DNA of 64,000 nucleotides from the NCBI GenBank assembly GCA_965285935.1, contig OZ260667.1, positions 40,362,001 to 40,426,000 of the forward strand. Direction: 5' to 3'. A model generated the notes under the pieces. The model saw only the letters and a list, made by a program, of their open reading frames with translations, was not told the DNA's origin and searched no databases. Positions 37,811 through 64,000 of the stretch are shown here, in pieces. Each line of letters starts with the position of its first letter. The stretch's first letter is position 1. The position numbers and the translations under genes are program-made. Source of the stretch: Ophelia neglecta (taxonomy: Eukaryota).

Positions 37811-40800
37811 ATGGACCCCAATATGGGGAAAGTTATCCTAGTAATCTGGCTGACACTGCTGCATCTGATAGCTATGGTATGTATGAAGAAATGAATTGTT
37901 TCAACATAAGAATACTTGGTAGTCCAATTATTTTGAATATTTCTATTCTGGCACTAATAGAAGAAGTGTTGTTTAATAGTGGACTTTCTATAAGCTGATT
38001 AGTCCTTCTCTCCTGATGAACTGACTAAAAGCCACAGAAAATGGACATGATAGTTGTCATGTACATGTATAGGGGCTGAGTTACCATTCAACTAAAAATA
38101 CTACATTATACTATGATAAATGGTATTTGGAGGGTTGGTTAATAAAGCGACCTAATAGTCTCCCTGTACTAAGGTCTCAACTGGCAATAAGAAAATCCAT
38201 ATCCTTCTTTCTACCTTTTAGTCTAGTTGTAAACTTATTTGTAAGATAAGTGTTTGCTATAAATTCATCTCCTTCTGAATTTCATAGTTAGTGAATCATT
38301 AGAAAAATGGCTATGACTAAGAAAGTAACTATAAAAAGCCAGTCTGTTTGTTGGCAACAGAGTTCCTGTTTAAAGATACTCTCAGGCTTTGTGTGGAACT
38401 TATAATGAAATGTGTTATTCTGGGTTTTTCAATAATGTTAGGCTCAGAAACCAACTGATTTTGCTTATCATTGCACAACATAGAGTGGTTATATAGGGAA
38501 GAAAAAAGGAATACTTTGTGTCATATATAAACCGGCCATCCATTAAGACTACTACTGGAAATCACGTATATCATATTACTGGCAATCCTTTGTAACTTAT
38601 TACTGGCAATCCTTTGTAACCTTTTACTGGCAATGCCCTGTAACCTTTTACTGGCAATTCCTTGTGACTTAACATATTACTGGCTATTCCATGTAACTTA
38701 TTACTGGAATATTACTGGCAAACACTTGTAACTCATTACTGGCAACCTTGTGTTACTTATTACTGGCAATCCCTTGTAAACTATTAATAGCAATTCCTTG
38801 GAACTTAATTTATTACTGGAATTTCCTTTTAACTTATTACAGGCCATGCCTTTTAACTTATTACTGGCAATCCTTGTAACTCATTACAGGATATCCCTTA
38901 ATTGTAACATTTTACTGACAATCATTGGAAACATATTACTAAATGGAAAGTCAATTTTAGGTAGTTAACTTTCAAGGGCCTCTACATTAAGAACTACATA
39001 TAATAAAGCGATGCACAGTTTAAAATAGGAATATTGGTATATTTTAACAAATATAGCAGTTTACCAGTATGTATACATGTACATGTACATGAACAGATGT
39101 ACAGACTAGTACTGTTATTATATCACACCACTATTATAGGTCAGCACATGTATATAATATGTAAAAGTTCCAAAGGCAGTTCTTTTTTATGGCAAAAATT
39201 GACAGACTGTGCGCAATTTATTCTTATTCAATTCAACCGACTTTTGGCAATTTTTCATTTTATTTTCAATCACCACAAATGCTTGCTCGTGTGATCAATA
39301 CTATGAAAGCACTAAGCAAAGTGGTCATACTATAGACAAACTGTGCCTTTACAATCCATGGTAATGAATGGCTTAGTGATTCAATCTTTAAAGCTACTAG
39401 GTAAAGTAGCTAAGTAGAGTATGTAAGAACTTTATCTAAATCAATCAAAATTATATGTAACAAGCTAAGAGTGATACAAACTGAAAGTTAAAGGAAAGAA
39501 AATGGTCGTCAAAGTCATAATAACCCCGGTATATAATTCTTTCTAAAGCCATTTATAGTCCTTTTCTGACAAATTAAAAAAAATGTAGCATGTTTTTGTA
39601 AGTAGTACTGTGTACAATGTGATTCTTTTGTATATTAACCAGGGGTCTGCAGCTTATAATTGCTCTTTATGTCAAATGGAGGGATGTGCTGTGTGCAACA
39701 CAGAGGGAGATACTAGTATCTGCAATGAATGTTGTGAAGGATATTACAAAATACCAATGACAGCACCTACTGGTAAGTAAACAAGGCCCATAGCTTTAGT
39801 GTCCTTGGTTTTATTATTTATTGATTTAGTATAAAGATAACTATATAGTAGGCGTTACAAAATGGAGAACGTTTGTTTACATTATTTTGTCATTCCTTAG
39901 GTGACACTGCTTTGAAGTGCATGTTAAAAATGAACATTCACTGAGTTCAGTAGATTTAAGATAAGATTTTACAGTTAGTTCCTGTATGTAAAGTCTAAAG
40001 TTCTACTAATATAATAGAAAAAATGCACGTAAACAATTTCAGATTTTTCAACAACTTATTTTCCTTCCTCTCCTGGACCAACTTCTGTGACTTATGCCCC
40101 TAAGACTACTACCCCTGATCCAGGTACCATGTGTGCTCCCTCCTGAACTACTCACCACAGGAACTAGTGTTCTAAAACTCAAATAAACTAACTTGCATTC
40201 AAATTGATATTTCTGCACCAAAATATCCATTTGAGAGCAGACATAATGCTTTTATACATTGCACAAACTAATGATAACTTAACATACCTGTATATACCTC
40301 ATTTAGGTGAGACTGATGGTCAGTTAATTGCTTAATGGGCTCAACTGTGCTTCAAAATAAAGGGCTCTTTGCAGCAATTACAACTTGATAGTAACAGTTT
40401 TGCTTTTCATCCTTTCATGTACATTTTTATACAATACCTTTTTGCTGAGATCTGAATTTAGGGTTTCATGTTTCAGCGGTGTCGAGCAGTTTAACCACTT
40501 CTGCAAATATATAATGAGACCTTCTAACAGTGATAAACATGTTTTATCAAGAAGAAAATAATAAATAATTAACCCACTACTGTAAACTGGATGACTAATA
40601 CGTTTTAAAAAAACATTTAGTTAATTATTGTAATTTGACCACGAGATAGTACAACTGTTATGGTAAACAATTAATGATCTGTTTAAAAAAAATTCTAAAA
40701 CTTCATTTCTGAATTTTTCAGTCACACAATCAAGCATCACCACAGTACCTTCAACCACAACGAAGCCTCCTCCCACCGTCACACAATCATCAGCTGTAAT

Positions 40801-43011
40801 CTCGAGGGGGCAAGATAATCCACCTGGTTTAAGTTCATACCAGTCGTGCATGCTGTGCTCAACTAGTGTGTCAAATTGCACCAAATGTACAAACGCAGCA
40901 CAAGGTGTGAATTGTTTAGCTTGTTCAATTGGAACTTACCTTCACAATGGACAATGTGAAAGTAGTTGTCCAACAGGCTATATACCTGACTCGGGGACTT
41001 GTAAGGAAGATGACAGTTCTTCTCGTTTAGCTATCATAATTGGATGCAGCGTGGCAGGTGCTGTTGTCCTTGTGATACTTCTAATTCTCCTTGTGTGCTG
41101 TTTGAAAAGGAGAAAGAAGCCACCACAACCAACACCTGCACTGCCAAGGAAAGAGGAATTGGATAGAATGAGGGTAAATTATTTTAATATTTTATCATTC
41201 AAAATGGCCAAATTCCTTTTGATGCCACTCACAAGAATATAATATTGCTTTTAATTCTAATTCATTATCAATTTTCTTTTGTACATGTATTATGAAATAT
41301 ATAATATATAATAAGCTGCAATAACCTTTTATCTGTAACAGTCTTGATAAAACATGGAATGAATTGAATTTGATATTTAAAAGATGAATTGTATTACCCA
41401 ATCCTTGGGTTGGGGGGGGGGGGGGGAGGGGTCTTCCAACCCCTTGAGAGAGGGAGCCCCCAACCCCTAGAGAGAGGGGTCCCCTAAACCCTGGAGGGAG
41501 GGATCCCCTTCAAGTTGATTTATTAGATTATGATCTGTTCCTTCTTCTAATGGGACAAATGGAAAACTGTGAAATGGCAGTTACAGCAAGAAGGTATTTT
41601 TAATTTAAGCATGTTTACTCCCTTGTGGGGGGGCAATGAATTGTGAACGGGGTAAATAAAAGGTAAATACCTAGCTGGGAAGTTAAGATAGCTGGCGTTT
41701 GGGGGGGGGGGAGGTGAGTGGGGGAGGAAATTATCTAATAAAATAAGTTAAAGGATACACCCTTCATTTTTACTAAGTTTGAGCCATACATTATTTTTTG
41801 AATTTTATAATTGAAGCCTTGTAACTGAACTTTGTTATGTTTTTATGCAGTCTATGTTCAAGTGTCCACTAGACATATTCACCATTCCTTTTCATAGGAG
41901 AGGGGCCTGGGTTTTATCAATGCCTTGTTTCTCTTGCCTTGTGTCTTTGTTTCTCAATGATTCCTGTTGACAACAGACAGGCTGATTTGGTTATTCCCGA
42001 TGACTTTTTTAACTACTGGTTGTTATCACTGTGCATTAATTCTTTTGCCAGCACACAGACACATTACCATTGTCTGATAGTCGCCGTCTTCCATCTGCAG
42101 TAATCCAAGAGGTGAGCTTAAATTTTCTCTTAGTTAATTTTTCCCCAAATATTTATCGTACAATCAGTATCTGAGTGTCTTATATTTTTTCTAATGCAAT
42201 CTTTACTTTTACATATACAAGGACAGCTTGATATCTAAATTTATACAACATTCACATACATGTACATGTATTATTATTGTCTCAACTCATAAAAACTTAT
42301 TGCCCAATGTATACATAAATGCTGGTATTTTTCCAGCAAGTAAACCATAATGTTGAGGAAGAGCACCCTCAGGGAAGGGCGTCTGCCAGGAATGGAAAAC
42401 CAGGTCCACCTAGTCACAGCAGAGTCGTATCTGACCCACAGTTATATGAGAACCCTGATGATGACGACCCTGAAGCCTTGTATGTCAACAATGAAGATGA
42501 CCCTGGGCCACCATCTCATGCATCATATGTTCAGGTGCACAAAAATATAAGTCCACTTGCACCTAGGAGTGTTAAAGACAAAAACAATGCAGGCGCTGTA
42601 GCCAATCGTGGTAAAGAACCAAAAATACCTAAGTATGAAAACACAAAAAAGGAACTAGAGGCATTTCATAAAAACAAAGGAAAAGGGACCAAAGATTATG
42701 TTAATGTAAGTGATACACTAGCAGAATATCGTGAAAGCAAGAATCCTCCTGCACCTAGTCATAAAGCACCCCCCCAAACGACAGCTCATAAGATGCCTCC
42801 CAAAGGACATGCCAGTCCTCTCAAACATGGATATGTTAATGATTCAGTGACAACAACGAATATGAGCAAATATGATAAACAAGTTCCAATTGGAGGAGGG
42901 GTTGAGGATGAATATATAACAAAAGACCAACAACATCGTAGCTATTACAATGTTCCTACTAACAAGGGTCCAGGATCGTCTTATTATAATGCTAAATCAG
43001 GGTATAAGTAA
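37811..43011 (+). CDS. Uncharacterised type I membrane protein (~487 aa): signal peptide, two furin-like Cys-rich repeats, mucin-like insert, TM helix, YxN-rich disordered cytoplasmic tail
   Basis: Phase-consistent exons: 37811-37876 (MDPNMGKVILVIWLTLLHLIAM, donor GTATGT; alternative in-frame ATGs at 37793 and 37823), 39643-39772 (GSAAYNCSLCQMEGCAVC...CNECCEGYYK), 40043-40123 (S/T/P-rich), 40722-41173 (S/T-rich, CMLC...CPTGYIPDSGTC, TM LAIIIGCSVAGAVVLVILLILLVCCL-KRRKK), 42052-42111, 42337-43011 (TAA). Confidence 0.85.
38574..38940. repeat. 24-bp minisatellite, ~14 diverged copies
   Basis: Unit ATTACTGGCAATCCTTTGTAACTT; period 24 (38581 to 38605); lies in the intron after the signal-peptide exon. 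Confidence 0.9.
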
Positions 43012-44923: not shown

Positions 44924-47900
44924 TTAAAGAAAAGATGGCCTTCTACTCCAGTCAAATTTGTTAGTAAAAGTCCATTGTTTTGTGTCATCAGTAATGTCAC
45001 AGTCTCCTATCTGAACATCTCCATCTTTTCTTGGTTTCCCTAAACATAACATACCCCTTGTCGTTCTGTATCCTAAAACAAGCGTTTTACCAGCTTGCCT
45101 CAGATATGTCCATTGCATTGCCTTGCTACATGTTTGTAGCTGTAAAGAACTCCTCTCAATCTTGACACATAAATCAGAGCCGATGTTTTTCAATAACCCT
45201 GCTCTATTTATTGTAAAATATTGTGACCGTTCAAGGTCCACACAGTCTACCAAAGTGAAGGTATTATTGTGCGGTACTAGAGTCAAGCATTGAGATGTGG
45301 CCAAGCTTTTCATCTGCCCATAATATACAGCATCATGATCCGGTAGAGGCATTTCAGGAATGACATGTTTCATAAACCACCTGAAACTTTTACATTTTAA
45401 TTTGTCTTTGAGCTTCAGCCTCTCTCTCAGTGACTCCACATTCACATCCACATCCAACTGTCTCGGAGCTTGGGCATAGAAAAATCCTTTGTATTCTTGT
45501 AAGACCACTTCTGCAGTCCTAACAGAGTTGTGGTATATGACACTCTTGGCATCCCCCTGGAAAGAGTATGGGATTCTTTTTCGGAAGATATGTGCCACAC
45601 GCGAACATGGTAGAATCTCAACCCTTCCACCACATTGCCAGACACGGAAAGAAAATTCCACGTCATCCACACCCCATATTTTCATATCTGGGTCAAGCAG
45701 GCCTAAGTGCATGAAAAACTTTCTCCTGAGGGAAAATGCTCCAGCTGGCATTATAGGGGATATTATTGGCTGACTTTCCACACTTCTGCCATCTTTCATG
45801 GCTTTGGGGATGTCTTTCCAGTAGAACTCCAGGTTCCAGTTGAACCCTCCATGGTAGCCGATGAATGTGCCCTTAATGTTGAAGTCCTCATCGGAGATGG
45901 TGTCCAGTAGAGACATTACCACTGTATCTGGATGGATGTTTATGTGACTGACGATCGGCTCTAGCCAGTGCTGGTTTACTTCTACATGAGAATCTATGTA
46001 GGAAATGATGTGGCCACGAGCATAAGAGGCTCCGATGATACGAGCCCTGGTGGAGCCTTCTCTCTGTACAGTCCGGATCAAGCGAACCTGGCAATGACAT
46101 GTTATAAAAGAAGTATTAGGCCTATAGGAAGTTAATAACATGGAGTTAATGCTACTTTTATAGTGTTCTTGTATGGTTTATGGCATTCGGTGTCCATTAA
46201 AATGAGTATTTTGGAATTTTTGTAAACCAAATTAAGGGGCTGGATCAAACACATGAACATGTTCCCAACCCTCCCCCACCCTCACCCCCTTTAGACTGAT
46301 GATCACCATTGTTACGGGTGGGGACCCACCATGACTATTTAGAAGAAGAAAAAAAATAATTAAATATGAAACTGAGACCCAAAATAATTTGAACATGTCT
46401 ATAAATAATACAAAATAATAACTTTAAAATAAGTAAACCTAGGTACAGCAATACCATATTTCAATTGCCTTCTTCGTATTGGTTCCCTCCACTCATTACT
46501 CTTTACTGTGAACTAAAACTTAACCTTTAAATACAAACCACTGACAATATGACACAGATATATGTATCCCAGTGAAAGCAATGGCACAAGAAAGTTTAAT
46601 AAATAACTTATTTCCGTGGTGGTCCACACAAATTATACACCTGGTGACCATCAGGTCTAAAGTTAGTCCCCAAAATGCAGCATAATGCAACAAAACATAT
46701 ATATACATTGAAACCTGTCTAATCAGGTCAGTCAAGGGAATGGGAAAAAACCTGACCACATTATGTAGGTGACCTTAATGAGCAGGTCAGTTAACACAAG
46801 CATAAATTGGTATCAGGCTATTAATTAGTGACCTCAGTGGGCAGGTGACCTTATTACACAGGTGACCACAAACACAGGTTTCACTGTATAAGAAAAAAAA
46901 AAAAATCCAATTTCAAACGTAGTGCTAAAGTATGCCGAAAGGTACAATGACCAAAGGTACTACTTAGACTATAAGTTTAACAATGCCCCAAGCCATATAC
47001 CATCTCCTCCCAAAGGCCCACTGTTTAGCAGGACAGGATGCAATTACGTACTGTACTTGGGCAAAGCCCTCCAGACCGATCACGTTTCATGAAGAGCGCG
47101 TTCCATGAAGAGCAGAGCACGTTTCATGAAGAGCACGTTTCGTAATTAGGTCTGCTTTATTCAGTCTGCTATCAAAATTCGTTCCAATAAGCAATGTTTA
47201 AGACAGGGTCCCAGTTACATTATTAAGGGTCTGGTTAAAGAAGTTTGTATACGCAAGATAATTAAATTTAGGAAAGCATAGCTGAAAATGGAATGATTCT
47301 AGTTGGCAGTGTGATAAGAGGAATGTAGCAATTTGATATAAACACATCAAGTAATTAAATATTAACTATAATAACTAAATGTTGACCTATGGAATTCACG
47401 AGAGTCTTACAGGTCCATATTCATAATTATGGCAGCATGTAGTTTTTACCAAATAACCATTAAATATAATTGTCATGGTGTAATGATTTCTTCACCTTAT
47501 GCAATGTGCATATTGCCTTTTCCAGTTCTTCTTTTAGACAAGTCAAATCGTCTGTGCTCTTGTCGTCAACTAACAGTACCTCCAGCAATAGATCTGGGTT
47601 GGATCTCTCCAACACAGAATGGAGCGTTCTCAGCAGTGTAGAAAGTTGTTCATTGTGGAACGGTATGACCACGCTGACTGATGTCGAATCATTCCTGCTC
47701 AAATTAAACCTCTCTTGTTCTTTTATACAGACCTTGGGCCTGGTGTCCCAGATATCCCGATTGACCGCAATTTCGTTACCGATCTTATCGTTGTAGGAAA
47801 ATGTACCATGACATTTTCCGCGATTTGTTACATAAAGTTTTCCGTTTTTATCTTCTTTTGCCCAGTTTCTGTAAATACCAATGTGCTTTGCGGTGTCCGT

Positions 47901-48218
47901 GAGAAATACATCCCCGTGAAGAGCGGCAAGGAACTGATATTCTTTGAATGTTTCTTCCACTCCCTCGCCGCTGAGGAGAATGCTACTGACGGTCGGAGCA
48001 CCGAGCCGAACAACGTTTCCCCATTCTAAGCTATATTTGAATATCACAAGTGTCCATGTAAGCAATAAAAATGTTTTCTGTAATAACAACACCCTGTACT
48101 TCAGTTTTCGGTTTCGGAGACAGCCATTTATCCAATCAAATGAATATGAATTAGATCTACCAAGGAAATGGCTTGTCGTGTTCTCTAAAATCATAATATG
48201 GTGTCTTCTCCAAGCCAT
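44924..48218 (-). CDS. GALNT: Divergent polypeptide N-acetylgalactosaminyltransferase-family protein (GT27 plus ricin-B lectin), ~628 aa, two coding exons
   Basis: Exons 48218-47496 (donor AAG|GTGAAG) and 46087-44924 (acceptor CAG|GTT), phase 0. N-terminal hydrophobic anchor; motifs SVVIPFHNE..TLLRTLHSVL, LLVDD, DSHVEVN..WLEP, GGFNWNL.F.W, FRVWQCGG..ILPCSRVAHIFRK..PYSF, CKSF.WF; C-terminal three-repeat ricin-type domain with Q.F/QW motifs. The start codon is uncertain and no isoform number can be assigned. Confidence 0.92.
46706..46886. mobile_element. Tc1/mariner (pogo/Tigger-like) MITE in the GALNT intron
   Basis: TA-CATTGAAACCTGT ... ACAGGTTTCACTG-TA; internal repeated CAGGTGACC motifs. 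Confidence 0.75.
47081..47142. repeat. Short tandem repeat CACGTTTCATGAAGAG x~3.5
   Basis: Directly visible 16-20-bp periodicity. Confidence 0.75.
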
Positions 48219-52600: not shown

Positions 52601-55600
52601 AACCTTTAACAAGTGTATTATGTTGACTGCTCCGTTGGATGGCGCGACCACCTAAACCCATTCAGTGCCTACAGAAAGCGCAAATGACCACTGAAGTTAC
52701 CAAATTACCGCATTGCCCATCACCAAGCCGTACACATCGGCGAATATTACCTACGTCCTTGGGACGTACATGCACTTTTATTTTAACGTCCTTGGTCATT
52801 TTCGGGAGTATTTTATATACTGGGACGCCGTAAATGAAGACACTGGGCAATAATTATGATTTTACAATAATTGCTTCACACTTGTATTTTTCAATTGTTA
52901 TGGTTTTTCTTAAAGATGTCATCAGTGTTGCACAAACGATTGCCACCAATTTTCATCTTAAAATGTACAGAGATGTCAATGTCAGCATTGTGAATCCAAA
53001 GGTAAAGAATGACAATTTCCTAATATGTTTTACTTGAACATTTCTTGGCAGACTAGAATATTTTATGAAAATTCAAAATAGATGGTGTGAGTGCCAAGTT
53101 TCCAAGTTGTAGTGTACTCATTGTTTGTACTTTTAGGATGTAGCCTGTGACTTGGTAGAACTGACTTATAAAGATCAGTATTTTAGCAGGGCAGACATGT
53201 GGAGGCTGAGAACAAGTTTGGTAAGATTTGTCCCTCACTCCTACACACCAACAGTGCTGATTATAAAGAGATTTAGATTTTGTTGTAGGTTTAGCCGTAT
53301 TAAATTCAGACAGAACAAAAACATACATGTATATGTGTTAATGTTGTCATTTCAGATAGGAACCTGCATGTATCTGTCTCAGAAGATTTGCTATGCTGAG
53401 ATGAGGGCCCAGGTGGAGGAGCTGTGGTCTAAGGGGGAGAAAGTCAAGTGTGGGTGTATAACAGAAGACACTAGGGTGGGTCCTCAAAACAGCATTTATT
53501 ACTTGTTAATTTGGTGTTGATCACAGGCAGTTGTTTGGTAATTTATACAGTATCATAGGGTCAATAAGCACATTGTAAGAGTGTCCCCTTCTGTGTTTCA
53601 ATTCTCCCATATGTTATAAATTCTGTGGGGTGGCGTGCTTCTGTGCCAACATGTCAGACTCCCATGCTATGCCCCCCCCCCCCCAGACATCCTTTTGGAC
53701 AGGTGGTAGCCCAGATATGGCTGCTTGGGGGATGTGAAGGCCCTAGGGCCCAAGATTGTGTGTGGCTAGCAGCTAAGTTGCCCCTTGTGTGTATATTGGT
53801 GGGTTATATAAACAGCAGGACTGTGAGCCCTTGAATTGCAATAAAGTTGTTGGGAACATGAAAATTTCTTTGTAAAGTGCTTTTGTACTGCATTTTTAAT
53901 GTAGAATACTGAGCACCTAATAAATATTAGTATTAATTGATTAATTAGCTGCTAGTTTCCTGTATGGGAAGAATTATTTGCTGAAATCTAAAAGATATAC
54001 AGACTTTCCTTGAGTGTTTACTCCCTTCGGGTATTGTATGTTGATAGGGTGGCACACATATATCAAGATGATGATATCTTATACATACATAGCTACTCTT
54101 TAGCCAAATTTCCCCTGTCTGGAATTCCCTTCCACTCTTTAGAAATCACTTCACCTGCCTGTGATTCACATCCTCTCTCTCTAGAACCACATCACTTGCC
54201 TGTGTTTCATGTCCTCCCTCTAGAAACACATCACCTGCCTGTGTTTTATGTCCTCTCTCTAGAATCACATCAAATACCTGTGTTATGTCCTCTCTCTAGA
54301 ATCTCATCACCCACCTGTGTTTCATGTGCTCTCTCTAGAATCACATCACTTGCCTGTGTTTCATTTTCTCTCTCTAGAATCATATCACATGTCTGTGTTT
54401 CACTTCCTCTAGAATCACATCACCTGCCTGTGTTTCAAGTCCTCCCTCTAGAATCACATCAAATGCCTGTGTTTCATGTGCTCTCTCTAGAATCATATCA
54501 AATGCCTGTGTTTCATGTGCTCTCTCTAGAATCACATCATTTGCCTGTGTTTCATTTTCTCTCTCTAGAATCATATCACATGTCTGTGTTTCACGTCCAC
54601 CCTCTAGAATTAAATAACATGCCTGTGTTTTTTATGTCCTCTAGAATCACAGTACCTGCCTGTGTTTCAAGTTCTCCCTCTAGAATCACATCAAATGCCT
54701 GTGTTTCATGTCCTCTCTTTAGAATCATATCACCTGCCTGTGTTTCATGTCCTCTCTCTAGAATTGCATCACCTGCCTGTGTTTCATTTGCTCTCTCTAG
54801 AATCATATCACTTGCCTGTGTTTTATGTGCTCTCTCTAGAATCACATCATCTGCCTGTGTTTCACATCCACTCTCTACAATCATCACCTGCCTGTGTTTC
54901 ACATCCTGTCTCTAGAGTCACATCCAATATATGTGATACACATCCACTAGCTAGACACATCCACTGTCTGTGATACACATCCACTAGTTAGACACATTCA
55001 CTGTCTGTGATACACATCCACTAGTTAGACACATCCAATGTCTGTGATGAACATCCACTAGCTAGACACATCCACTGTCTGTGATACACATTCACTAGTT
55101 AGACACATCCACTGTCTGTGATACACTTCCACTAGTTAGACACATCCACTGTGTGTGATACACCTCCACTCCGTATGAGACTGTGATTGTCATTTGGTCA
55201 GTACATTTCGATCCACATTGTCTCTCTGGCAGGTGACTTTCAGGTCCTCAACAGCCCAAGTCAACATATTCATCCAGATGAGCTCTGAGATGTGGGAGTT
55301 TGACAACTATGGAGATTTGTATTTTGAGAAAGCCGTTGATGGTTTCCTGGTTGACCTGTTTGGTCAATGGAAAGAGTTAAACTGTAACCATGATGTCACC
55401 ATAACCATGTTCTCTAGAACATTCTACGATGCTAAGTCTATTGGTACGTACTGTTTCATTTCATCACTGTTGCATTCTGGTCATAAAGACAAATATGTTT
55501 TTGATACAAATGACTTGTATGTTAATAATAATGATTTTATTGGTCTGTTCATTTATTAATGGTCACAAAAGAATAAGGCACATGTGCTATGTATTACAGT

Positions 55601-58600
55601 AGAGGCCTGATTATATCCAAAGTCTCGTGGGGCAGTAAATTTGTTTGGATAATTTGATGTTCAGATGATCCAAAAATATTCGCATATACATGTATATACA
55701 TGTATTTACAAATTATATGTACAACACCTTAGAAAAGTGTCTATATCATTTGCCTCAAATGACCACAGCGACACTGAACAATAATATAAAAGTCTCAAGT
55801 GCCACCTAGGCTTTAACCATGGCGTAACATTTTGCAAGCTGTTTCAAATTGAGCACATCAATCTAAATAGTAATGGTTAGTCATCAGACCTGTAGCCTCT
55901 TCCTTGGCATCAAGGGGGTCTACATTCGTCTGACTCTGGCTCACATTCAGGGTGGCTTGTTTTTAAATGATACTCTGACATCTTGCCGTAGTGTATTGTT
56001 TGGCAGTATTTTAGACTGATCAGGTTAGCAGCATAAAAATGATAGATAGGACAAATCTAGTGGCTTAGTATCACACCCACCGTCATGGATCTTAATATGG
56101 TTTTATTTAGTTTTATGCACTAGGGAAAATTTACAGATTGTGCTCATTGATTGACATGCCATAAGACACATACATAATTGAAAAACTCAACAAAGTTGAA
56201 AATGTCCAAGACCTATTTTATTGGACACTGCGACTGGACTGAAATGAACATAGTTTTTAGCAAACAACATGGTGGACTTATGGTTTGGTAATCAACATGA
56301 TTTTATGTGAAATACACCATAAATCACACATAAAAGGCAACTTATTGATACAAGTTTAATTGTTTGATTATTTCATGTTTTTCTAATTCATATTTTCTGT
56401 TATATTTACAAAAAATTGTGGGCCATGGATTTTGGGTGGATAATCCAAAATCGGGATAAGTGAAACCCGAATAATCAGGCCTGTACTATATGTTGAAAAT
56501 TTACAACATTAAGTGTTCATTTTGGCAGGAATTACATCACCTGTTATGCTCGGAAGGCAATATTTTAAATTTTCACTGAATTCATATTCAATGAGTCATT
56601 TGATGGAGACTGATTTCAGTTCATCACTGTGGCAAAGTGATATTAGGATATAAGCTGCGGCAATTCCCCTTAGATGGTTCTGTACCTGACTTGCAGACAA
56701 ACATGTACATACTATACATTTGCAGCTATGCTTAAGTTTGGGTCTAAAGCTCTTTTTATATTTCATTTCAGAGGAGTTTCCTATGCACATGAGAGAATGT
56801 GTTCAACAGGACTATCTTGGGCGTTTCTATGAAGACTTCTATCGGTAGGAGTGACAATCTGTATTTAATATGTTATAATACTGTTCAGTAGGAGTGACAA
56901 TCTATATTTAACATGTTATAATACTGTTCAAGCAACTTCTGCCAATGTACATTGGAGACATTCAAATGTATCATAATATTATGTTGATATGATATTTAAC
57001 TAAGAACAGTGGTCCCTGGGATGTGGGACCACCCCTAAAGGAAAAGTTGCCTATATTGCAGGCGGCCCACCATGGGCGGTTACTTAACATGGAAAAGATA
57101 GAGCATGGTAATTTAACGCCTGTCCTGCCAACGCAGGTTGCCCTTCATTGGAGGGGCCTACATGGCAGGGACAACTGTATATTAATACAGTAACTATCTT
57201 TACATAGTGTACATGTATCTAACTTCTAAGAGAATGTTAAGGGGCATGTTCTATTACAAGTCTACTCGGAATGTCTAAATTGGCAAATCGCATTGTAATG
57301 TATGATATAACAAGACTAATATTATATACATTCCCCTGTGGACATGGCCGATGAATACAGTCCTTGAGTCCCATCAAAGATACAGAAACTAACCCCCTAC
57401 CTCCAGACATAAAAAGCTGGTCTCCTTCCCTACCCAAAGGATCATTTCTGGAAAATCTTTGATATTAAAGTATGAGTAATAACATGTTTAGAATTGTTGA
57501 AGGGAAGGGTCAGCTTTCATTAGGAGGGCATGGGGTGAGTTGTTAAAGAGAACAGGGAGACAAACACAACAGACAAGAGAATGACCTAGTCTTGGTCATC
57601 TGGAGATAATGAGTGCAGCACCCATCCTGTAGTCTCCAGTTGTACGCCACCTTACCTATCCTTAGGTTGTATTACCTATGTCCCAGTTTCACAAATGGTT
57701 TACCTTGAGCACTCTTGAGTACATACCCAAGTGTGTTTATTTGGATATCTCATTGACCAAAAGCAGTCCACCTTGTATATAATTATTTTCAAAGCTTATA
57801 TTGACAGTAATCCTTCCTGTGCTCCATAAACATGTATCTTGTTCTGAATTGATGGAAACTCTATATATTATATTCACAGGAGCAAGTTTTGCCAATTTAG
57901 CTTCAAGTCCTATAGATAATGAATGCTTTAACCTTTGTTTTTTGTATTTTGCAAGAATTGTTTTCTGGCAGTCATATTTAACAGCCACAATTAAACAAGG
58001 AAAAGGTTGTTAATAATATTTTATTTAAATTTGAAATGTTTTTATTTTTACTCCAAACATGTGTATAATATGAACATTTGACAGAATAAAAACAGTTTCT
58101 GTTGATCAGATATGACCACGGTCTTGCAAAATAGAAATCATTATGTTATATTGTTGACACCGGTGTAATATTGCCTCATTTCCTGTTTCTAGAGTGGTTG
58201 TCCAGAATGAGAAATATCTAGACAATTGGCGTGATTCCACTGCTGGCGATGTGTAAACTATTTTATCTCCAGTAAACCCTGTGTGCCCCCCCTCCCACCT
58301 CCTGTAGTCGCTGGTACTTTAAATAGGCTGGTTCGGGATGTATGAAATATATAATTTGTTTGAATTTACACCCATTTGGTTTATTATGTGTCATTACATA
58401 ATAAACAAAATTTGAATTTCTGAAACATCATACCTTGATTTTAAGACTTGTATTAAAAAGCATATGGCATATTTTTGGAATTCAGTAATCCTTCAAACCA
58501 GCCTTCTTTTAGGACCGGTGGTTAATTCTCCCATTTTGTTAAGACTAACAACATATGGGCATTCTAGTATGTGCTGTAAAAACTGCATTCTTATGACACT

Positions 58601-61600
58601 TAATCCTGTGTGGTGAAATGATAACCAGCATGGAAGAAGTCATAACAGTAGGTAAATATTTATAACCTCAGTAGAATATGGTATGAGCATGAAATCGGAA
58701 GGATAAATGACAAAAGAATCTAACCACTTTATATTGTCCTGGCATTCTGTTGCTGGACTTGTAAATACATATGATTGTAAATCAAAGTGAAGAACATTGC
58801 TTTTGAAAAAAAATGTTTGATTGGATGTTCAAGCAGTCTCTACTGTAGTGTCTGCTCACATGTGCAGCCCCATGGGGCCTTATCTAGTGCCTGGCTTACT
58901 GATAGGTGTCAAAGCATCAACTAAGCATGGTTTGGGCATACCTTATTATGTCCTGAGCTCTCTGCTCTCTAGCAGCCTAAATAATACCATGGCCAAGGGA
59001 ACATTATTTTTACAGATGCTTGGCTGTTGAATTCATGTGGATGGGACAGTATATTTATAAAATCAAAATACATGTAGTTTATTCTATATTGTTGTCAATG
59101 AATCAGGAATGACAAGAGGAGCTGGTTGACTCATGAGTAGGTTACACCAGGTCTTATTAATGGTGACATTGCACTTGTAGATCATTTCATCATTGGAGGG
59201 ACTTTTAATTGCCATGACTTTACCTGCTGTATATTCATTCAGCTGTTGTCCATGTCTTTTTTGCCGAGTCTGTGCAGTCACTATAGGGCTGGTGTGGAAG
59301 CCGTAGGGAACATAGCTAAGCAGTCCCTCTGAGAATGAAATCATGTGTCCATAATATTCTGAAAACTGACTTCTTACTATTTTACTAGCTTATATAAAAA
59401 CAAATATAATAATTATAATTATAATATAACCATGATATGCTAAACTATATGAGTAGTTCTATTTGTTTTCCATGAACTGTCTGAGCATCTCTTTAGTAGG
59501 TCAAAAAAGTTCTTATTTGCCTTTATAAAAACACACATAGGTCCTTTTTAAGAATATCTGTCAGTTTTTCACTGAACTTCACCTTTGAGAAATGGTTTAT
59601 TTAAATGTAATCACCCCCAATTTTTTTGGAAACTTTATATCTAAGGCAGCCTTAAAAGTCTTAAACTCCACCAGACGAAATTATAATTATGTCAACTGCA
59701 TATATCAGCACTGTTAAATTGTGAAATTAGTTCCAATTTGAAAATAGTCCGCAGTTTGAAACTGACCCAAACGGGTTGTAAAGTGTCCGGTATAAAAAAG
59801 TGCTTCTTCGGGATTGTGGAGCACATTAAGGGGCAAGGCTTTATTTTTACTTCTTGAAATAACTAATTTAGGTTTCAAGTTGTTTTATTATTAAATTCTT
59901 TGTCTTTTGTCCTGACCTTAATTGGCATTCAGTTGTTGTCTGTCAGTTTCTTGCTCTGTGCTGAGTCTGTTCAGTCAACTGGGCTGGTGTTGAGCTGCTA
60001 GTCCCATGTTTACTGACTGAAGGGAGCATACCTAAAGCAGTGTTTCATGCTTCATTCCTGTTTGCTTTGTCCCCTTCATGTTTTGTGGCTGAACAAGAGA
60101 AAAGATAATTGCTAGCATTTCCAAAGTGTGTATGTCGCTGATACCAATTTGACCAAAACTACCATATAAGTTTTTATTATTGTTGCTTAAATATATCTTA
60201 ACATGAGCTGTGCATCTACTGGCATTGATGAAATATAGTCTGATCAGTAATTGTTTGTTGTTTGCTGTTGGTAAGTGTCAAGTTTAAATAAAGAACATGA
60301 AGTGATTCTAACGGAGGTTATTTCAAGGATACAAAACAAATCATATGAATCAAGCATCCTGATGTATGCCTTTAATTCATATACATGTATATAGTTGGTT
60401 GCTAATCAAATGGGACAAAAATCAGATTAAATTTGTATATACATGTACATAGAACTTATTGCATTTATTCCATAGTTAACACAAACATATATACTTGTCA
60501 ATGTACTTTTTAGATTTCCTACATAATGAAATGGCTAAAATTTAAGCTCTGTTCAAACACATACAAGTAACATTCATATCCATTGGTTGTAACCTTGTCT
60601 CATCAAAAGACAGTATTTTCATGAGAACCTAGTGTATTCAAAGAGAAGAGTACCCACTGTATTCAAAGGGAACGGTATTTAGCGTATTCAAAGAGAATAG
60701 TACCTAGTGTATACAAAGAGAATAGTACTCAGTGTATACAAAGTAATGAGCACCGAGTGTATTCAAATGGATGACTACCTGGTGTATTCATACATGGTGC
60801 TGTTTATTTTTGCTGGAATATACTAAGCCTGATACTCATACACTACACAATCTGATTATGTCATGCTGGGACAAGGCTTCTGACTGTAATATTGCTTGTA
60901 TAGCTATAGACAAAATGGTAAACTATCAACGCCGAATGAAGCTATCACACAGACAAATATCATTAAAATGTTATGTTTTCCTTAGCAAATATCAGAGTAA
61001 CTATATAATGGAGAATTTATGGGTTTCAAGTTAAAAAATAGGTGTTAGTAATAATACCTGACTTTTACACTAATTTAAATCAGCAATTTTGTTTTCTCCA
61101 TTTTTGTTGTTAGGAGTACATGTTGTATTTATTTACTTGCTCATGTGTGTCATTATCAAGGGATGATCATATAAGGCGGGTGTCATTCCAGAGTTGTTGT
61201 CCAGAATGAGAGATATGATGACTGGACTTCTACCATCATACAGCTGAAAAAGCTGATGATTGACTATCAAAATCATGTCATCCGATACCACCAGAGGGAG
61301 GGAGTGCATGTGCCAAGGTCATGGAACTCATCAGCCTCCCAAGGGAATTTTCTGGAGGTGCTCAATATGGCACTCAATGGTATGGTGGTGATTTAACAGC
61401 TAGCTTTTAACATAAACTTACAGTCTATTCACAAACGTCTTTTCTTCCTTTAGCTTGGTATGAAGATAAATTGAATTAAGATCCCTATCTTTCAATACAC
61501 TAACTGTTGTATCATTTAAAAAAGTATGTGTTTTTTTACACTGTCAATTGACTAAAAATAAGCCACTTTACTTAGTGTTTGAGAAGTATTTCCTTGACCG

Positions 61601-64000
61601 ATGTTTTGACCGGACTGGTAAGCTGTCAATAGTCATCACCCCAGGGCCGGGAGTATTTGAAGTGGACAGGGAACTCACCAACATCACAAAACAACGCACC
61701 ATCGACTGCGGTAGGCATAAAACTCAAATGTCTCTATCACAGACAGTCACTGGCTAGTTAAATCATCTGGGTATCAAACCTAAAATGGTGCATTTTTATG
61801 TGTTAATTTTATAAATGTTACTATTGGCAAAATGGTATGTTATAAATAATACATAATATATATCACTGAGTGAGAATTGAGATAGTTTAATCTAGATATT
61901 TGTACATGTACCATATTCCACATAAGCACCCAAGGCCATTTAAATATTTGCATGGCCCAAGAAAACTGAAACAAGTACCCATGTCCATTTTGATGTATAA
62001 TCTCCTCAAAACAGGAAACTGGCAACTGTCCATTTTGATGCATAATCTCCTCAAAACAGGAAACAGGCAAAATTTGAAAGATCTGACAGAAAGAAAGGGA
62101 CTGGGTTATTATTAGGGCAGGGGTGCTTTTTATAAAGAATACAGCAGTCTTATAATATGACTTTCTAGTGAGCATGTGTATACATGGACATATTCTCAGT
62201 TTATTCCTTCCCTTTTAGGAAACAGTAGTGATCTTGTATGTATGGGTGAGCAGCCCCTTCATGCTGTGCCTCTCTTCAAGGTAAATGGTGTGTTTTGTTT
62301 TAAATGTAAAATATCATGTACATGATTAATAATCATTAGTTAAATTATTCTTCCTTGTGTAAAGAAAATGATTGACATTTCTACCCTAACTGGGCTGGTT
62401 GTAAGTGGGATGTTCTAGGAAGGTGCCCATATGGCAAGAGTGATAAGAATTCACGAAAACTGAGAAATGAGCCTTAAACTAATGTAAATATAACATGGGT
62501 ATTAACACAAACAGGTTAACAATTTAATACAAGATGAATAGGCATAGCTATCTGATTTTTTATTGGATGATTAATAAATCTGGTGTCAAACTTTTTGGAT
62601 TAAAAGTTGAACAACCGAGATTGACTCGATAAACGGTAGGAATAAGATTGTAGAACATGTTTGTAGTCCTGCTTTTTGTACTGTCCAGATCAGTATCAAA
62701 GGTTCACAGCAAGACTACCAACTTGATCCTGTCTAAAGGTGTGTCCTCATATTTGAACGCCATACTTTTTACTTTCTTAGAATTCTGATTTGTGTCCAAG
62801 ACATTAACCTTCCCAGTCATGCACAGACAATCAGCTCAGAAGATGTAGTTTCTTGTCAGGCATTTGAAAACAAGAACCTTGTCTCTAGACTGGGATATAT
62901 CTTTTTTTGACCGCCCTGTTCAGTGCTCTACAGCACCATATTTGCTTTCAGTTTCACAACAAGAATCCCTCGAACACCATAGATGTCGGTGATGACTACA
63001 ATATACCACATTGGATGAATCACAGGTAGTTATGAAGAGAAGCATTTTGTCATGGTTTTAGATCACAATTTGATGAATACGTATATTATCACCTTAGTCT
63101 AATTTCAGCTTCATTTTGGTAAAATGATTCGTGGTAAAGTTTATGAAACATTATTATAAATATACTATAAATTGTTTGGATTTAATATGAATGTAATTTT
63201 TCTAAAAACAATATTGGAACTGATGTGGCACGGTGGGTCATCTTGTGGCTTCTTGTATAGTTATGTTAAGGTCTAAATGTTTTTCACTTTGGCCCTCAAC
63301 CATTATTAATTTTTGCCAACATTATCAGTGACTCATATTGCTAATTGTATACAATATGCATGCAAAATTTATTTATAAAAAATCTAAAACAAAAAGTAAC
63401 ATTGAAGAAGCAGATGACGATGTGCTGAATTCTAATGCATGGAGGCATGTCAAGTAGAAACAACTAGATGTATTCATTTGTTTTTAGAACCTATTTTCAA
63501 CTATTTATTCTCATTTTTCAGTTTTTACACCTCCCAGAGTCAGGCAGAGAGAATATGTCAAGGAAAATTCATACCTCGCATAAAAACACCCCAGTTTGTG
63601 GCAAGTATTAAATCTACTTTGAATGTCCTTTACAGCAATTGACTTCCTACTTTCCATCGAACAATAATGGTATACATGTAATACTTAATTTTGTTCCCTC
63701 CTCTTCAATTAGTTTTAGAAGTTAATTTCTGATGATATTTTACCATTTTAGCCATCCGTGTGTGATACAGGCATGCCAGAGCCCTCTACTGGTGAGATTT
63801 TTTATCAGATTTGGTAGAGGTAGAGTGTTGAAATTAGTGTGTTGGAATTTAACTTTCTTTCCAATGGCAGGCTGTTGGGATGGTGCACAAGGCGATTTGA
63901 CACCCTCTAGTTCTGTTCACTATTTGCTCAAGAGCTCTGTGTAATGGGCCTGTCTTCCCAGATGGTGTCTAAGTCTAAGACTCCCCCAGACCCACCTCTT
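49661..64000 (+). CDS. DEPDC5: GATOR1 complex subunit DEPDC5 (Iml1), 5' portion; continues beyond the window
   Basis: Phase-consistent exons: 49661-49706, 51049-51136, 51549-51601, 52916-53001, 53137-53220, 53356-53475, 55233-55443, 56772-56844, 61192-61379, 61576-61710, 62219-62280, 62952-63025, 63522-63600 (GC donor), 63962->64000. Signature peptides: [119 protein letters not shown]. Confidence 0.97.
50490..50740. repeat. Low-complexity polypyrimidine (C/T-rich) tract
   Basis: About 250 bp of CCCT/CTCC-rich sequence in DEPDC5 intron 1. Confidence 0.8.
52127..52845. mobile_element. Non-autonomous DNA transposon, CAGTG termini, 5-bp TSD (hAT5-like)
   Basis: TIR CAGTGTTTTCATT / AATGAAGACACTG; flanks GGCAA at 52122-52126 and 52846-52850; subterminal GGGAGTCCC/GGGACG repeats; CpG-rich. 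Confidence 0.8.
54140..54915. repeat. 39-bp minisatellite, ~20 copies
   Basis: Unit CTCTAGAATCACATCACCTGCCTGTGTTTCATGTCCTCT; generates spurious 13-aa repeat ORFs on both strands. Confidence 0.95.
54930..55170. repeat. 37-bp minisatellite, ~6.5 copies
   Basis: Unit GTGATACACATCCACTAGTTAGACACATCCACTGTCT (a dimer of ACACATCCACT subunits); period 37 (54970 to 55007). Confidence 0.95.
55597..56488. mobile_element. Non-autonomous pogo/Tigger-like element, ~890 bp
   Basis: TA-CAGTAGAGGCCTGATTAT ... ATAATCAGGCCTGTACTA-TA; subterminal GGATAAT repeats. Confidence 0.7.
56845..56930 (+). repeat. 43-bp tandem duplication beginning exactly at a DEPDC5 splice donor
   Basis: GTAGGAGTGACAATCT(G/A)TATTTAA(T/C)ATGTTATAATACTGTTCA x2. 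Confidence 0.9.
57007..57177. mobile_element. Tc1/mariner-like MITE, same family as 30936-31113
   Basis: CAGTGGTCCCTG ... CAGGGACAACTG-TA; shared internal motifs (CACCCCTAAA, AAAGATAG..CATGG, CCCTTCAT). Confidence 0.75.
58193..58313 (+). pseudogene. Degenerate duplicate of DEPDC5 coding exon 9 (pseudo-exon or poison exon)
   Basis: Acceptor CCTCATTTCCTGTTTCTAG|A GTG GTT GTC CAG AAT GAG AAA TAT versus the functional exon at 61192, A GTT GTT GTC CAG AAT GAG AGA TAT. Reads [21 protein letters not shown] (TAA 58254-58256). Confidence 0.75.
60628..60792. repeat. 25-bp minisatellite, ~6.5 copies
   Basis: Unit AGTGTATTCAAAGAGAATAGTACCT; period 25 (60634 to 60659). Confidence 0.88.
61982..62071. repeat. 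45-bp tandem duplication
   Basis: TGTCCATTTTGATG(T/C)ATAATCTCCTCAAAACAGGAAAC(T/A)GGCAA at 61982 and 62027. Confidence 0.9.

What the first reader, a model, noticed from the sequence alone, without database searches (positions are those of the whole stretch)
45500..46065. GT27 enzyme with intact metal ligands but a remodelled donor-sugar pocket
Seen: DSH and AHIFRK..PYSF are intact, but three near-invariant family motifs are altered: WGGENLE reads WGVDDVE, MAGGLF reads MPAGAF, and REGL(I/M)RAR reads REGSTRAR; AEVWMD also reads AEVVLQ. Known (human GalNAc-T2 numbering, from memory): L204, A307-L310 and W331-N335 line the GalNAc site and E334 is critical. The ~628-codon ORF is uninterrupted. Inference: changes clustered at the sugar site with Mn/UDP binding preserved suggest a different UDP-sugar donor, meaning a novel protein O-glycosylation type, or a pseudoenzyme.
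Basis: partly seen in the sequence, partly recalled or inferred. Interest (0 to 1): 0.7.

Follow-up and report, generated by a model that had tools for sequence, protein, structure and literature searches.

The report
Annelid GalNAc-transferase with rewired sugar pocket
This gene belongs to a conserved branch, so far named only in annelid worms, of the enzymes that start mucin-type protein glycosylation; its sugar-binding pocket is rebuilt while the metal and peptide sites are kept, so it likely attaches a different sugar to proteins than the rest of its family does.

Summary
The motifs are as described, but the 628-codon frame is two exons around a 1,408-base intron. The changes are not decay. 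They define a single-copy GT27 clade of 21 sequence clusters (58-76% identical to this protein; next relative 46%), monophyletic at 100/100, with dN/dS 0.03 in the one unsaturated pair. Named members come only from the annelids Capitella and Paralvinella. Only 12 of 250 catalytic-domain columns switch residue against 296 other GT27 proteins, and 8 lie at the donor-sugar pocket (T2 numbering L204S, I253L, A307P, G308A, L310A, G333V, E334D, N335D). Mn ligands, UDP contacts and the Pro-x-Pro peptide pocket are invariant. Best reading (0.55): an active peptide O-glycosyltransferase using a UDP-sugar other than GalNAc. N335D restores the aspartate that inverting GT7 enzymes use as base, so a beta-linkage is a minority rival. 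Annelid cuticle collagens carry sugars on threonine, and this clade is a candidate writer, but nothing links them directly. No activity or expression data exist here. Interest 0.7.

The parts
47496..48218 (-). Exon 1 (241 codons): predicted cytoplasmic tail, membrane anchor, stem and first part of the GT-A domain
   Evidence: (PF00535 E 4.6e-10)
48036..48092 (-). Predicted type II membrane anchor, residues 43-61
   Evidence: best 19-residue hydropathy window, mean 1.62; same position in orthologues
47562..47672 (-). Nucleotide-binding motifs VVIPFHNE and VDD, of the usual GT27/UDP type
46088..47495 (-). Intron, 1,408 bases, GT..AG, phase 0; inferred from splice signals and colinearity with intronless orthologues, not seen spliced
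44924..46087 (-). Exon 2 (387 codons plus stop): rest of the catalytic domain, linker, ricin-type lectin domain
46040..46063 (-). REGSTRAR: L204-equivalent changed to Ser; R201 and R208 equivalents kept
45986..45994 (-). DxH manganese motif (D224, H226 equivalents), intact
45905..45907 (-). I253-equivalent gatekeeper changed to Leu
45818..45826 (-). F280 and W282 equivalents of the Pro-x-Pro peptide pocket, intact
   Evidence: 21 of 21 each
45734..45751 (-). G-loop MPAGAF: A307P, G308A, L310A
45656..45676 (-). WGVDDVE: G333V, E334D, N335D; the second Asp sits at the xED catalytic-base position of inverting GT7 enzymes
45560..45595 (-). AHIFRK..PYSF: third Mn ligand H359, F361, R362 and Y367 equivalents, intact
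44972..45322 (-). Ricin-type beta-trefoil lectin domain; the GalNAc-binding Asp of the alpha repeat is absent
   Evidence: (PF00652 E 1.4e-08)

Best explanation
This is a two-exon GT27-family gene from a conserved clade, so far named only in annelids, whose donor-sugar pocket is rebuilt, and it likely encodes an active Golgi enzyme that puts a sugar other than GalNAc onto Ser/Thr of proteins. Shown: fold, clade, purifying selection, intact Mn, UDP and peptide contacts, and eight fixed pocket substitutions. Inferred mechanism: it binds Mn and a UDP-sugar as GalNAc-T2 does, holds a proline-rich peptide in the F280/W282/F361 groove and transfers with retention (alpha-linkage). The changes around the N-acetyl group (I253L, G308A, L310A, and by recall L204S) and at the O4/O6 reader (E334D, N335D) set a new sugar. 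Galactose is my single most likely donor (about 0.25 of the 0.55), since human T2 already uses UDP-Gal and galactosylated threonine is known from an annelid cuticle collagen; Glc, GlcNAc, Xyl or Man share the rest.
For: Clade: identity gap 58% against 46%; monophyly 100/100 with a stem of 0.79 changes per site (100 SH-aLRT on 106 rows); no further member among the best 150 of an unindexed search of 1.84 billion representatives. Selection: dN/dS 0.029 for L032 against L034; in the other 9 of 10 pairs synonymous sites are saturated (pS 0.79-0.91, pN 0.23-0.28); all seven signature codons examined vary only synonymously. Clustering: 12 switch columns of 250, 8 at the pocket. Invariant in the clade: D224, H226, H359, R208, W331, G332, E337, R362, Y367; R201, F280, W282, F361. 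Fold: model of full-length orthologue P0006, pLDDT 90.7, matches T2 4d0t at Z 48.5, rmsd 3.0 over 467 residues. Papers (passages read): G308, G332, E334 and R208 give donor specificity (PMC13071866); G308/G309 contact the N-acetyl group, the E334 equivalent reads O4 and O6, and human T2 also accepts UDP-Gal (PMC6994419); I253A/L310A reprogrammes T2's donor (PMC7276986); F280/W282/F361 bind Pro-x-Pro (PMC4432651).
Against: No activity, docking or expression data. Sequence cannot give the direction of the change: L310A enlarges the N-acetyl pocket rather than filling it, and the Met at T2 position 306 (aligned with the Tyr that I recall excludes GalNAc in beta-4-galactosyltransferase) is unchanged in 21 of 21. 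L310A is shared with sister subfamilies that keep E334/N335 (19 of 22). A pure GalNAc-to-Gal switch would not need E334 to change. That loss of the E334 equivalent kills canonical enzymes is recalled, not found in my search, and would favour an inactive reading. The roles of L204 and N335 were not found in the passages I read.
Confidence: 0.55

Rival explanations
1. Still a UDP-GalNAc transferase. The paired E334D/N335D and G-loop changes compensate one another and tune the acceptor (collagen-like peptides or a glycan) or accept an N-acyl variant, and the product is ordinary alpha-GalNAc.
For: All 16 solved relatives found with exon 2 are GalNAc-Ts or so annotated (one listed as 'Glycosyl transferase' is a Toxoplasma GalNAc-T3). 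R208, D224, G309 and G332 are kept. A307 and G333 also touch an acceptor-side GalNAc in T2 (PMC4432651), so some switches may concern the acceptor. E334D alone occurs in 3 of 296 other GT27 proteins.
Against: Eight simultaneous fixed changes at one pocket are far more than tuning would need; the genome keeps many canonical WGGEN paralogues for GalNAc transfer; G308A, L204S and G333V occur in 0 of about 296 others.
Confidence: 0.2
2. A switch of mechanism: the new Asp at position 335 acts as catalytic base, and the enzyme makes a beta-linked sugar-Ser/Thr by inversion, as its GT7 cousins do.
For: WGVDD aligns without gaps to WG(G/A/S)ED in 12 of 12 GT7-type exons taken from the own genome (scores low, 22-36, register set by the shared WG). 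The xED-Asp is the base of most inverting GT-A enzymes and GT27 shares a clade with inverting GT7 (PMC7185993). Asp here is 21 of 21 in the clade, 1 of 296 outside.
Against: The same paper notes that retaining GT64 keeps the xED-Asp without using it. Inversion needs attack from the other face, but the GT27 peptide groove is invariant. GT60, retaining, has an acidic residue here too (recalled).
Confidence: 0.12
3. A conserved pseudoenzyme: it binds Mn, UDP and proline-rich peptides as a chaperone, scaffold or regulator of other GalNAc-Ts, without transfer.
For: E334 is changed and W388 is no longer constrained; catalytically doubtful GALNT paralogues exist in vertebrates (recalled).
Against: The substitutions are fixed, not drifting, and every metal and diphosphate ligand is invariant. 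Two paralogues in the same genome that look dead (L006, L007) have lost DxH and lie on long branches instead.
Confidence: 0.12
4. An incipient pseudogene or an assembly or sequencing artefact.
For: None found beyond the absence of a spliced read.
Against: Three DNA runs of one sample cover both exons without a frameshift, and their only difference in the signature is synonymous; orthologues carry the same signature under strong purifying selection.
Confidence: 0.01

Closest known systems
Polypeptide N-acetylgalactosaminyltransferases, CAZy GT27 (human GALNT2; PDB 4D0T, 2FFU)
   Same: Type II membrane layout, GT-A domain plus ricin lectin, DxH plus C-terminal His, UDP contacts, Pro-x-Pro groove; E 1e-70 by sequence, Z 48.5 by fold.
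   Different: Eight fixed substitutions in the donor pocket, W388 unconstrained, lectin alpha-site Asp absent in 18 of 18 clade members examined.
Bump-and-hole GalNAc-T2 I253A/L310A (PDB 6E7I, 6NQT; PMC7276986)
   Same: Both gatekeeper positions are changed; L310A is identical. Precedent that these sites reprogramme the donor.
   Different: Natural, I253L rather than I253A, and accompanied by six more changes, including the O4/O6 reader.
Intron-poor GT27 subfamilies with a VGCA/IGCA G-loop (own-genome L002, L003; named members from Capitella teleta and Owenia fusiformis)
   Same: Sister group in the tree (98/96); share L310A and the lost lectin Asp.
   Different: They keep L204 (20 of 20 covered), G308 (21 of 22), E334, N335 and W388 (22 of 22); also uncharacterised.
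GT7 beta-1,4-galactosyl/GalNAc-transferases (WGGEDD motif)
   Same: Homologous motif (PF02709 hit in 20 of 20 clade members at E up to 0.01) with Asp at the base position.
   Different: GT7 is inverting, acts on glycans, has DxD and no lectin; the clade nests among GT27 proteins by identity and fold.
GT60 polypeptide alpha-GlcNAc-transferases of protists
   Same: Precedent for a GT27-related peptide transferase with another donor (placement beside GT27: PMC7185993).
   Different: Separate family; PF11397 matched only 1 of 20 clade members. No GT60 sequence was compared directly.

Membership tests
GT27 (sequence family) | GT-A catalytic domain followed by a ricin-type lectin, homologous to ppGalNAc-Ts | tested here: met
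GT27 (sequence family) | N-terminal type II membrane anchor | tested here: met
   hydropathy window at residues 43-61; long helix in the orthologue model; prediction only
GT27 (sequence family) | DxH motif and C-terminal His for Mn | tested here: met
   D224 and H226 in 36 of 36, H359 in 38 of 38 clade sequences, redundant members included
Canonical ppGalNAc-T (EC 2.4.1.41) | Gal/GalNAc-T motif WGGEN(L/I/V)E and xGGL G-loop | tested here: not met
   WG(V/A)DDVE and MPAGAF in 21 of 21 clusters
Canonical ppGalNAc-T (EC 2.4.1.41) | Pro-x-Pro peptide pocket F280/W282/F361 | tested here: met
   21 of 21 each (roles from PMC4432651)
Canonical ppGalNAc-T (EC 2.4.1.41) | GalNAc-binding Asp in the lectin alpha repeat | tested here: not met
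   0 of 18 clade members, 2 of 21 sister members, 58 of 95 canonical ones by an approximate pattern search; some canonical enzymes use another repeat
Canonical ppGalNAc-T (EC 2.4.1.41) | Transfers alpha-GalNAc from UDP-GalNAc to Ser/Thr | not testable with these tools
   needs an enzyme assay
Inverting GT-A enzymes (GT7 type) | Asp at the xED catalytic-base position | tested here: met
   ungapped register against 12 of 12 GT7-type exons, low scores
Inverting GT-A enzymes (GT7 type) | Acceptor placed for in-line attack; beta product | not testable with these tools
   model coordinates and UDP-sugar docking were not available
GT60 | PF11397 match and GT60 placement | tested here: inconclusive
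   1 of 20 members match; no GT60 sequence in the trees

The most novel reading that the evidence does not exclude
This clade is the unidentified enzyme that glycosylates annelid cuticle collagen: a GT27-derived polypeptide O-galactosyltransferase (or O-mannosyltransferase) that writes the sugar-threonine/serine units which stabilise the triple helix in place of hydroxyproline, possibly by an inverting mechanism regained through the N335D base. It would be the first GT27 with a native donor other than GalNAc and a natural case of donor, perhaps stereochemistry, switching by eight substitutions.
Probability: 0.18. Interest if true: 0.88.

Novelty: new variant of a known kind. Interest (0 to 1): 0.7.

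Why it matters
GT27 is described as a family that makes one linkage (abstract of PMC6994419). A conserved branch with a rebuilt donor pocket is a direct, testable candidate for the first exception, and so for a new way of starting protein O-glycosylation in animals. Annelid cuticle collagens carry galactose on threonine (Riftia; passage in PMC10141479) and a glucuronic acid-mannose unit (Nereis; title only); that no enzyme is assigned to these is my recall, not a search result. The clade names a protein to assay. It also offers a natural set of substitutions for engineering donor specificity in GalNAc-Ts, at the same positions used in bump-and-hole work.

Tried and rejected
Expression: no RNA holder listed; the three runs laid keep the intron and show no splice joint, so they behave as DNA. 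This says nothing on expression. Protein Atlas: it did not hold the window's protein or P0014; the Capitella member gave only generic GT2/GALNT neighbours, no new lead. Shorter fragments (30-157 aa): 17 hits, none showing the clade signature where the motifs are covered; proteins over 1,075 aa were not searched with the clade profile. Synteny: the Paralvinella gene model is fused to an Oxa1-type domain, but the PF02096 matches in the own genome are on C2, not C12, so no shared neighbourhood was shown; loci L031-L034 are too short to show neighbours. The wide fold search of the exon-2 model returned GT27 and beta-trefoils only. The cuticle-collagen link could not be tied down: named Lamellibrachia and Owenia GT27 proteins are in the database but no named clade member from them appeared, although Riftia, a relative of Lamellibrachia, is the best-documented case; unnamed members were left unassigned. 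Prior description: searches listed no paper on this clade; only listings were read, the terms were loose, and the library lacks most subscription journals. One search did not yield the T1 mutagenesis data. Two reviews sought by recalled identifiers were not held. Earlier findings of this scan: three look-ups, nothing. No complex prediction was run, since an enzyme-substrate pair and UDP-sugars are outside what that tool tests. No supplements were read. Rejected: pseudogene, artefact, single-copy oddity.

Full report
Observation. The region is the second exon of a minus-strand gene. The '628-codon uninterrupted ORF' is not a genomic ORF: the longest frames are 405 and 252 aa. Joining 48218-47496 to 46087-44924 over a 1,408-base GT..AG intron gives exactly 628 aa with one terminal stop, and the join is colinear with orthologues that have no intron. 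Splicing is inferred, not observed. The protein has a predicted membrane anchor at residues 43-61, a GT-A domain and a ricin-type lectin.

It is a clade, not an oddity. A search with the first 250 residues of exon 2 found 19 clusters at 58-76% identity, then a drop to 44% or less among the 120 listed. A profile of these added one more, from Paralvinella palmiformis. The unindexed search of 1.84 billion representatives returned four clade members at the top and no new one among the best 150. Over all 337 proteins then held, matches split at 58.2% against 46.2% identity, and all 38 clade sequences covering the motifs (near-copies included) read MPAGAF and WG(V/A)DDVE. The clade is monophyletic: SH-aLRT 100 in a quick tree of 106 of 335 catalytic segments and 100/100 in a careful tree of 42 of those 106 rows, with a stem of 0.79 changes per site. 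Its sister group (98/96; trees rooted at the midpoint only) is a set of intron-poor GT27 proteins that includes two paralogues of the own genome and named proteins of Capitella and Owenia. The only named clade members are Capitella teleta ELT94181.1 and ELT87154.1 and Paralvinella KAK2143829.1; no mollusc, brachiopod, arthropod, nematode or chordate protein among the named hits belongs to it. The window's genome holds one copy; the next paralogue is 45% identical. That the window's organism is an annelid is likewise inferred, from these homologues and from its very long Ala/Ser-rich collagens.

Selection. Four metagenome loci gave DNA of orthologues. For the one unsaturated pair, L032 against L034, dN/dS is 0.029 in the catalytic domain and 0.127 in the lectin. 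In the other 9 of 10 pairs synonymous sites of the catalytic domain are saturated (pS 0.79-0.91) while pN is 0.23-0.28. All seven signature codons examined differ only synonymously among the five sequences (four for none missing). Three DNA runs of a single sample show 10 coding differences from the window, 6 synonymous and 4 not when read one site at a time; none alters the signature, one is a silent change in the codon of the N335-equivalent Asp, and one changes a conserved C-terminal Trp. These numbers are small and add little.

Where the changes fall. With one sequence per cluster (21) against 296 other GT27 proteins, 12 of 250 columns are switches (at least 90% one residue in the clade, at least 80% another outside). 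Eight are L204S (18 of 18; 0 of 291 outside), I253L (19 of 21; 3 of 295), A307P (21 of 21; 5 of 296), G308A (21 of 21; 0 of 296), L310A (21 of 21; 21 of 295), G333V (19 of 21; 0 of 296), E334D (21 of 21; 3 of 296) and N335D (21 of 21; 1 of 296). The other four are conservative (F222Y, R-to-K, L-to-M and, counted above, none further at the pocket; the list is, where positions 222, 420 and 432 are the non-pocket switches printed, making 11 printed switch rows in all if I253L is counted once). W388 and D390 have lost constraint. Meanwhile D224, H226, H359, R208, W331, G332, E337, R362 and Y367 are invariant, as are R201 and the peptide-pocket residues F280, W282 and F361. Passages read place G308, G332, E334 and R208 at donor recognition and I253 and L310 in a hydrophobic pocket (PMC13071866); G308/G309 at the N-acetyl group and the E334 equivalent at O4 and O6 (PMC6994419); I253 and L310 as gatekeepers whose mutation reprogrammes the donor (PMC7276986); A307 and G333 at a GalNAc site close to the donor sugar, and F280/W282/F361 at Pro-x-Pro recognition (PMC4432651). 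The roles of L204 and N335 are recalled. A model of the full-length orthologue P0006 is confident (pLDDT 90.7) and matches T2 4d0t at Z 48.5, rmsd 3.0 over 467 residues, so the fold is normal.

How it most likely works. Fixed, clustered substitutions beside invariant catalytic machinery are the pattern of a changed specificity, not of a dead enzyme; two degenerate paralogues in the same genome show the contrast, with DxH lost and long branches. I therefore commit to an active, retaining, peptide O-glycosyltransferase with a UDP-sugar other than GalNAc (0.55). Which sugar cannot be read from sequence. Galactose is the shortest step, since human T2 already uses UDP-Gal, but E334D suggests the O4/O6 side changed too, which would suit Glc, GlcNAc, Xyl or Man, and L310A opens rather than fills the N-acetyl pocket. 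The lectin's alpha-site Asp is missing in 18 of 18 clade members, but also in 19 of 21 sister proteins, so it is not specific.

Rivals. The enzyme may still use UDP-GalNAc (0.2). It may have regained inversion (0.12): WGVDD aligns without gaps with WG(G/A/S)ED in 12 of 12 GT7-type exons, and this Asp is the base of most inverting GT-A enzymes (PMC7185993; PMC9364030; PMC7948508; passages). But retaining GT64 keeps that Asp unused, and the GT27 peptide groove is intact. A conserved pseudoenzyme gets 0.12, a pseudogene or artefact 0.01.

The collagen lead. Riftia cuticle collagen has galactosylated threonine (passages in PMC10141479, and PMC11766948); a beta-galactosylated (Gly-Pro-Thr)10 peptide becomes triple-helical (passage in PMC11923368); Nereis cuticle collagen has a glucuronic acid-mannose unit (title in a reference list only); galactose chains on earthworm cuticle collagen are recalled. 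The own genome has two very long collagen loci on C1 (1,212 and 2,415 triplets in the stretches fetched, 30 loci of 160 matches), with Ser at the Y position in 11% and 18% and Thr in 6% and 3.5%. Possible substrates thus exist, but nothing ties them to this enzyme, and no named clade member came from Lamellibrachia although its GT27 proteins are in the database. I give the link 0.18.

Comparison and novelty. By sequence and fold it is a GT27 member; by the Gal/GalNAc-T motif it fails the test for a canonical ppGalNAc-T, and databases label it only by family or as hypothetical. My searches listed no paper on the clade (listings only, limited library). Verdict: a real, conserved, apparently undescribed GT27 subfamily with a rebuilt donor pocket; new variant of a known kind; interest 0.7.

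Correction to the count above and elsewhere in this report: one search printed 11 rows marked as switches (T2 positions 204, 222, 253, 307, 308, 310, 333, 334, 335, 420, 432), not 12. The right figure is 8 of 11 at the pocket; where this report says 12, read 11.

Noticed in passing
window 46702-46890: A 189-base element in the intron with 17-base terminal inverted repeats beginning and ending in TA and contig depth thousands of times that of the flanks: likely a very high-copy MITE of Tc1/mariner type.
   Followed up: partly
L002 (G000:C2:32.33 Mb), L003 (C7:45.27 Mb), L004, L005, L009: Intron-poor GT27 paralogues with a VGCA/IGCA G-loop (G309C, L310A) but normal WGGEN; they form the sister group and include named Capitella and Owenia proteins. 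L002 appears to carry two lectin domains. Possibly an uncharacterised annelid expansion.
   Followed up: partly
L006 and L007 (G000:C2:67.42-67.43 Mb): Two adjacent single-exon GT27-like genes with intact long frames that have lost DxH and the WGGEN motif: candidate pseudoenzymes.
   Followed up: no
G000:C1:92.97-93.09 Mb (L051-L078 in part): Two divergently oriented, very long collagen genes rich in Gly-Pro-Ala, Gly-Pro-Ser and Gly-Glu-Arg triplets; candidate cuticle collagens.
   Followed up: partly
P0003, P0020, P0021, L031-L033: Intron positions differ within the clade: three loci are intronless, P0003 starts at the same place as the window's exon 2, and P0020/P0021 stop after the PYSF motif. 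This suggests a retrogene origin with later intron gains (inference).
   Followed up: no
P0287: The Paralvinella gene model fuses the glycosyltransferase to an Oxa1/YidC-type domain (PF02096); likely a merged prediction of two neighbouring genes.
   Followed up: partly
window 3073-10938, 40667-43011, 55179-61757: Neighbours on the plus strand: PDZ-domain exons (Scribble-like by recall), a furin-like-repeat membrane protein with a tyrosine-motif-rich tail, and IML1/DEPDC5 exons. No functional link seen.
   Followed up: no
G000, PF02709 search: At least 20 strong GT7-type matches in this genome, an expanded beta-4-galactosyltransferase-like set.
   Followed up: no
P0250: One unrelated, long-branched GT27 protein has independently gained Asp at the 335 position (WGAEDVE).
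   Followed up: no
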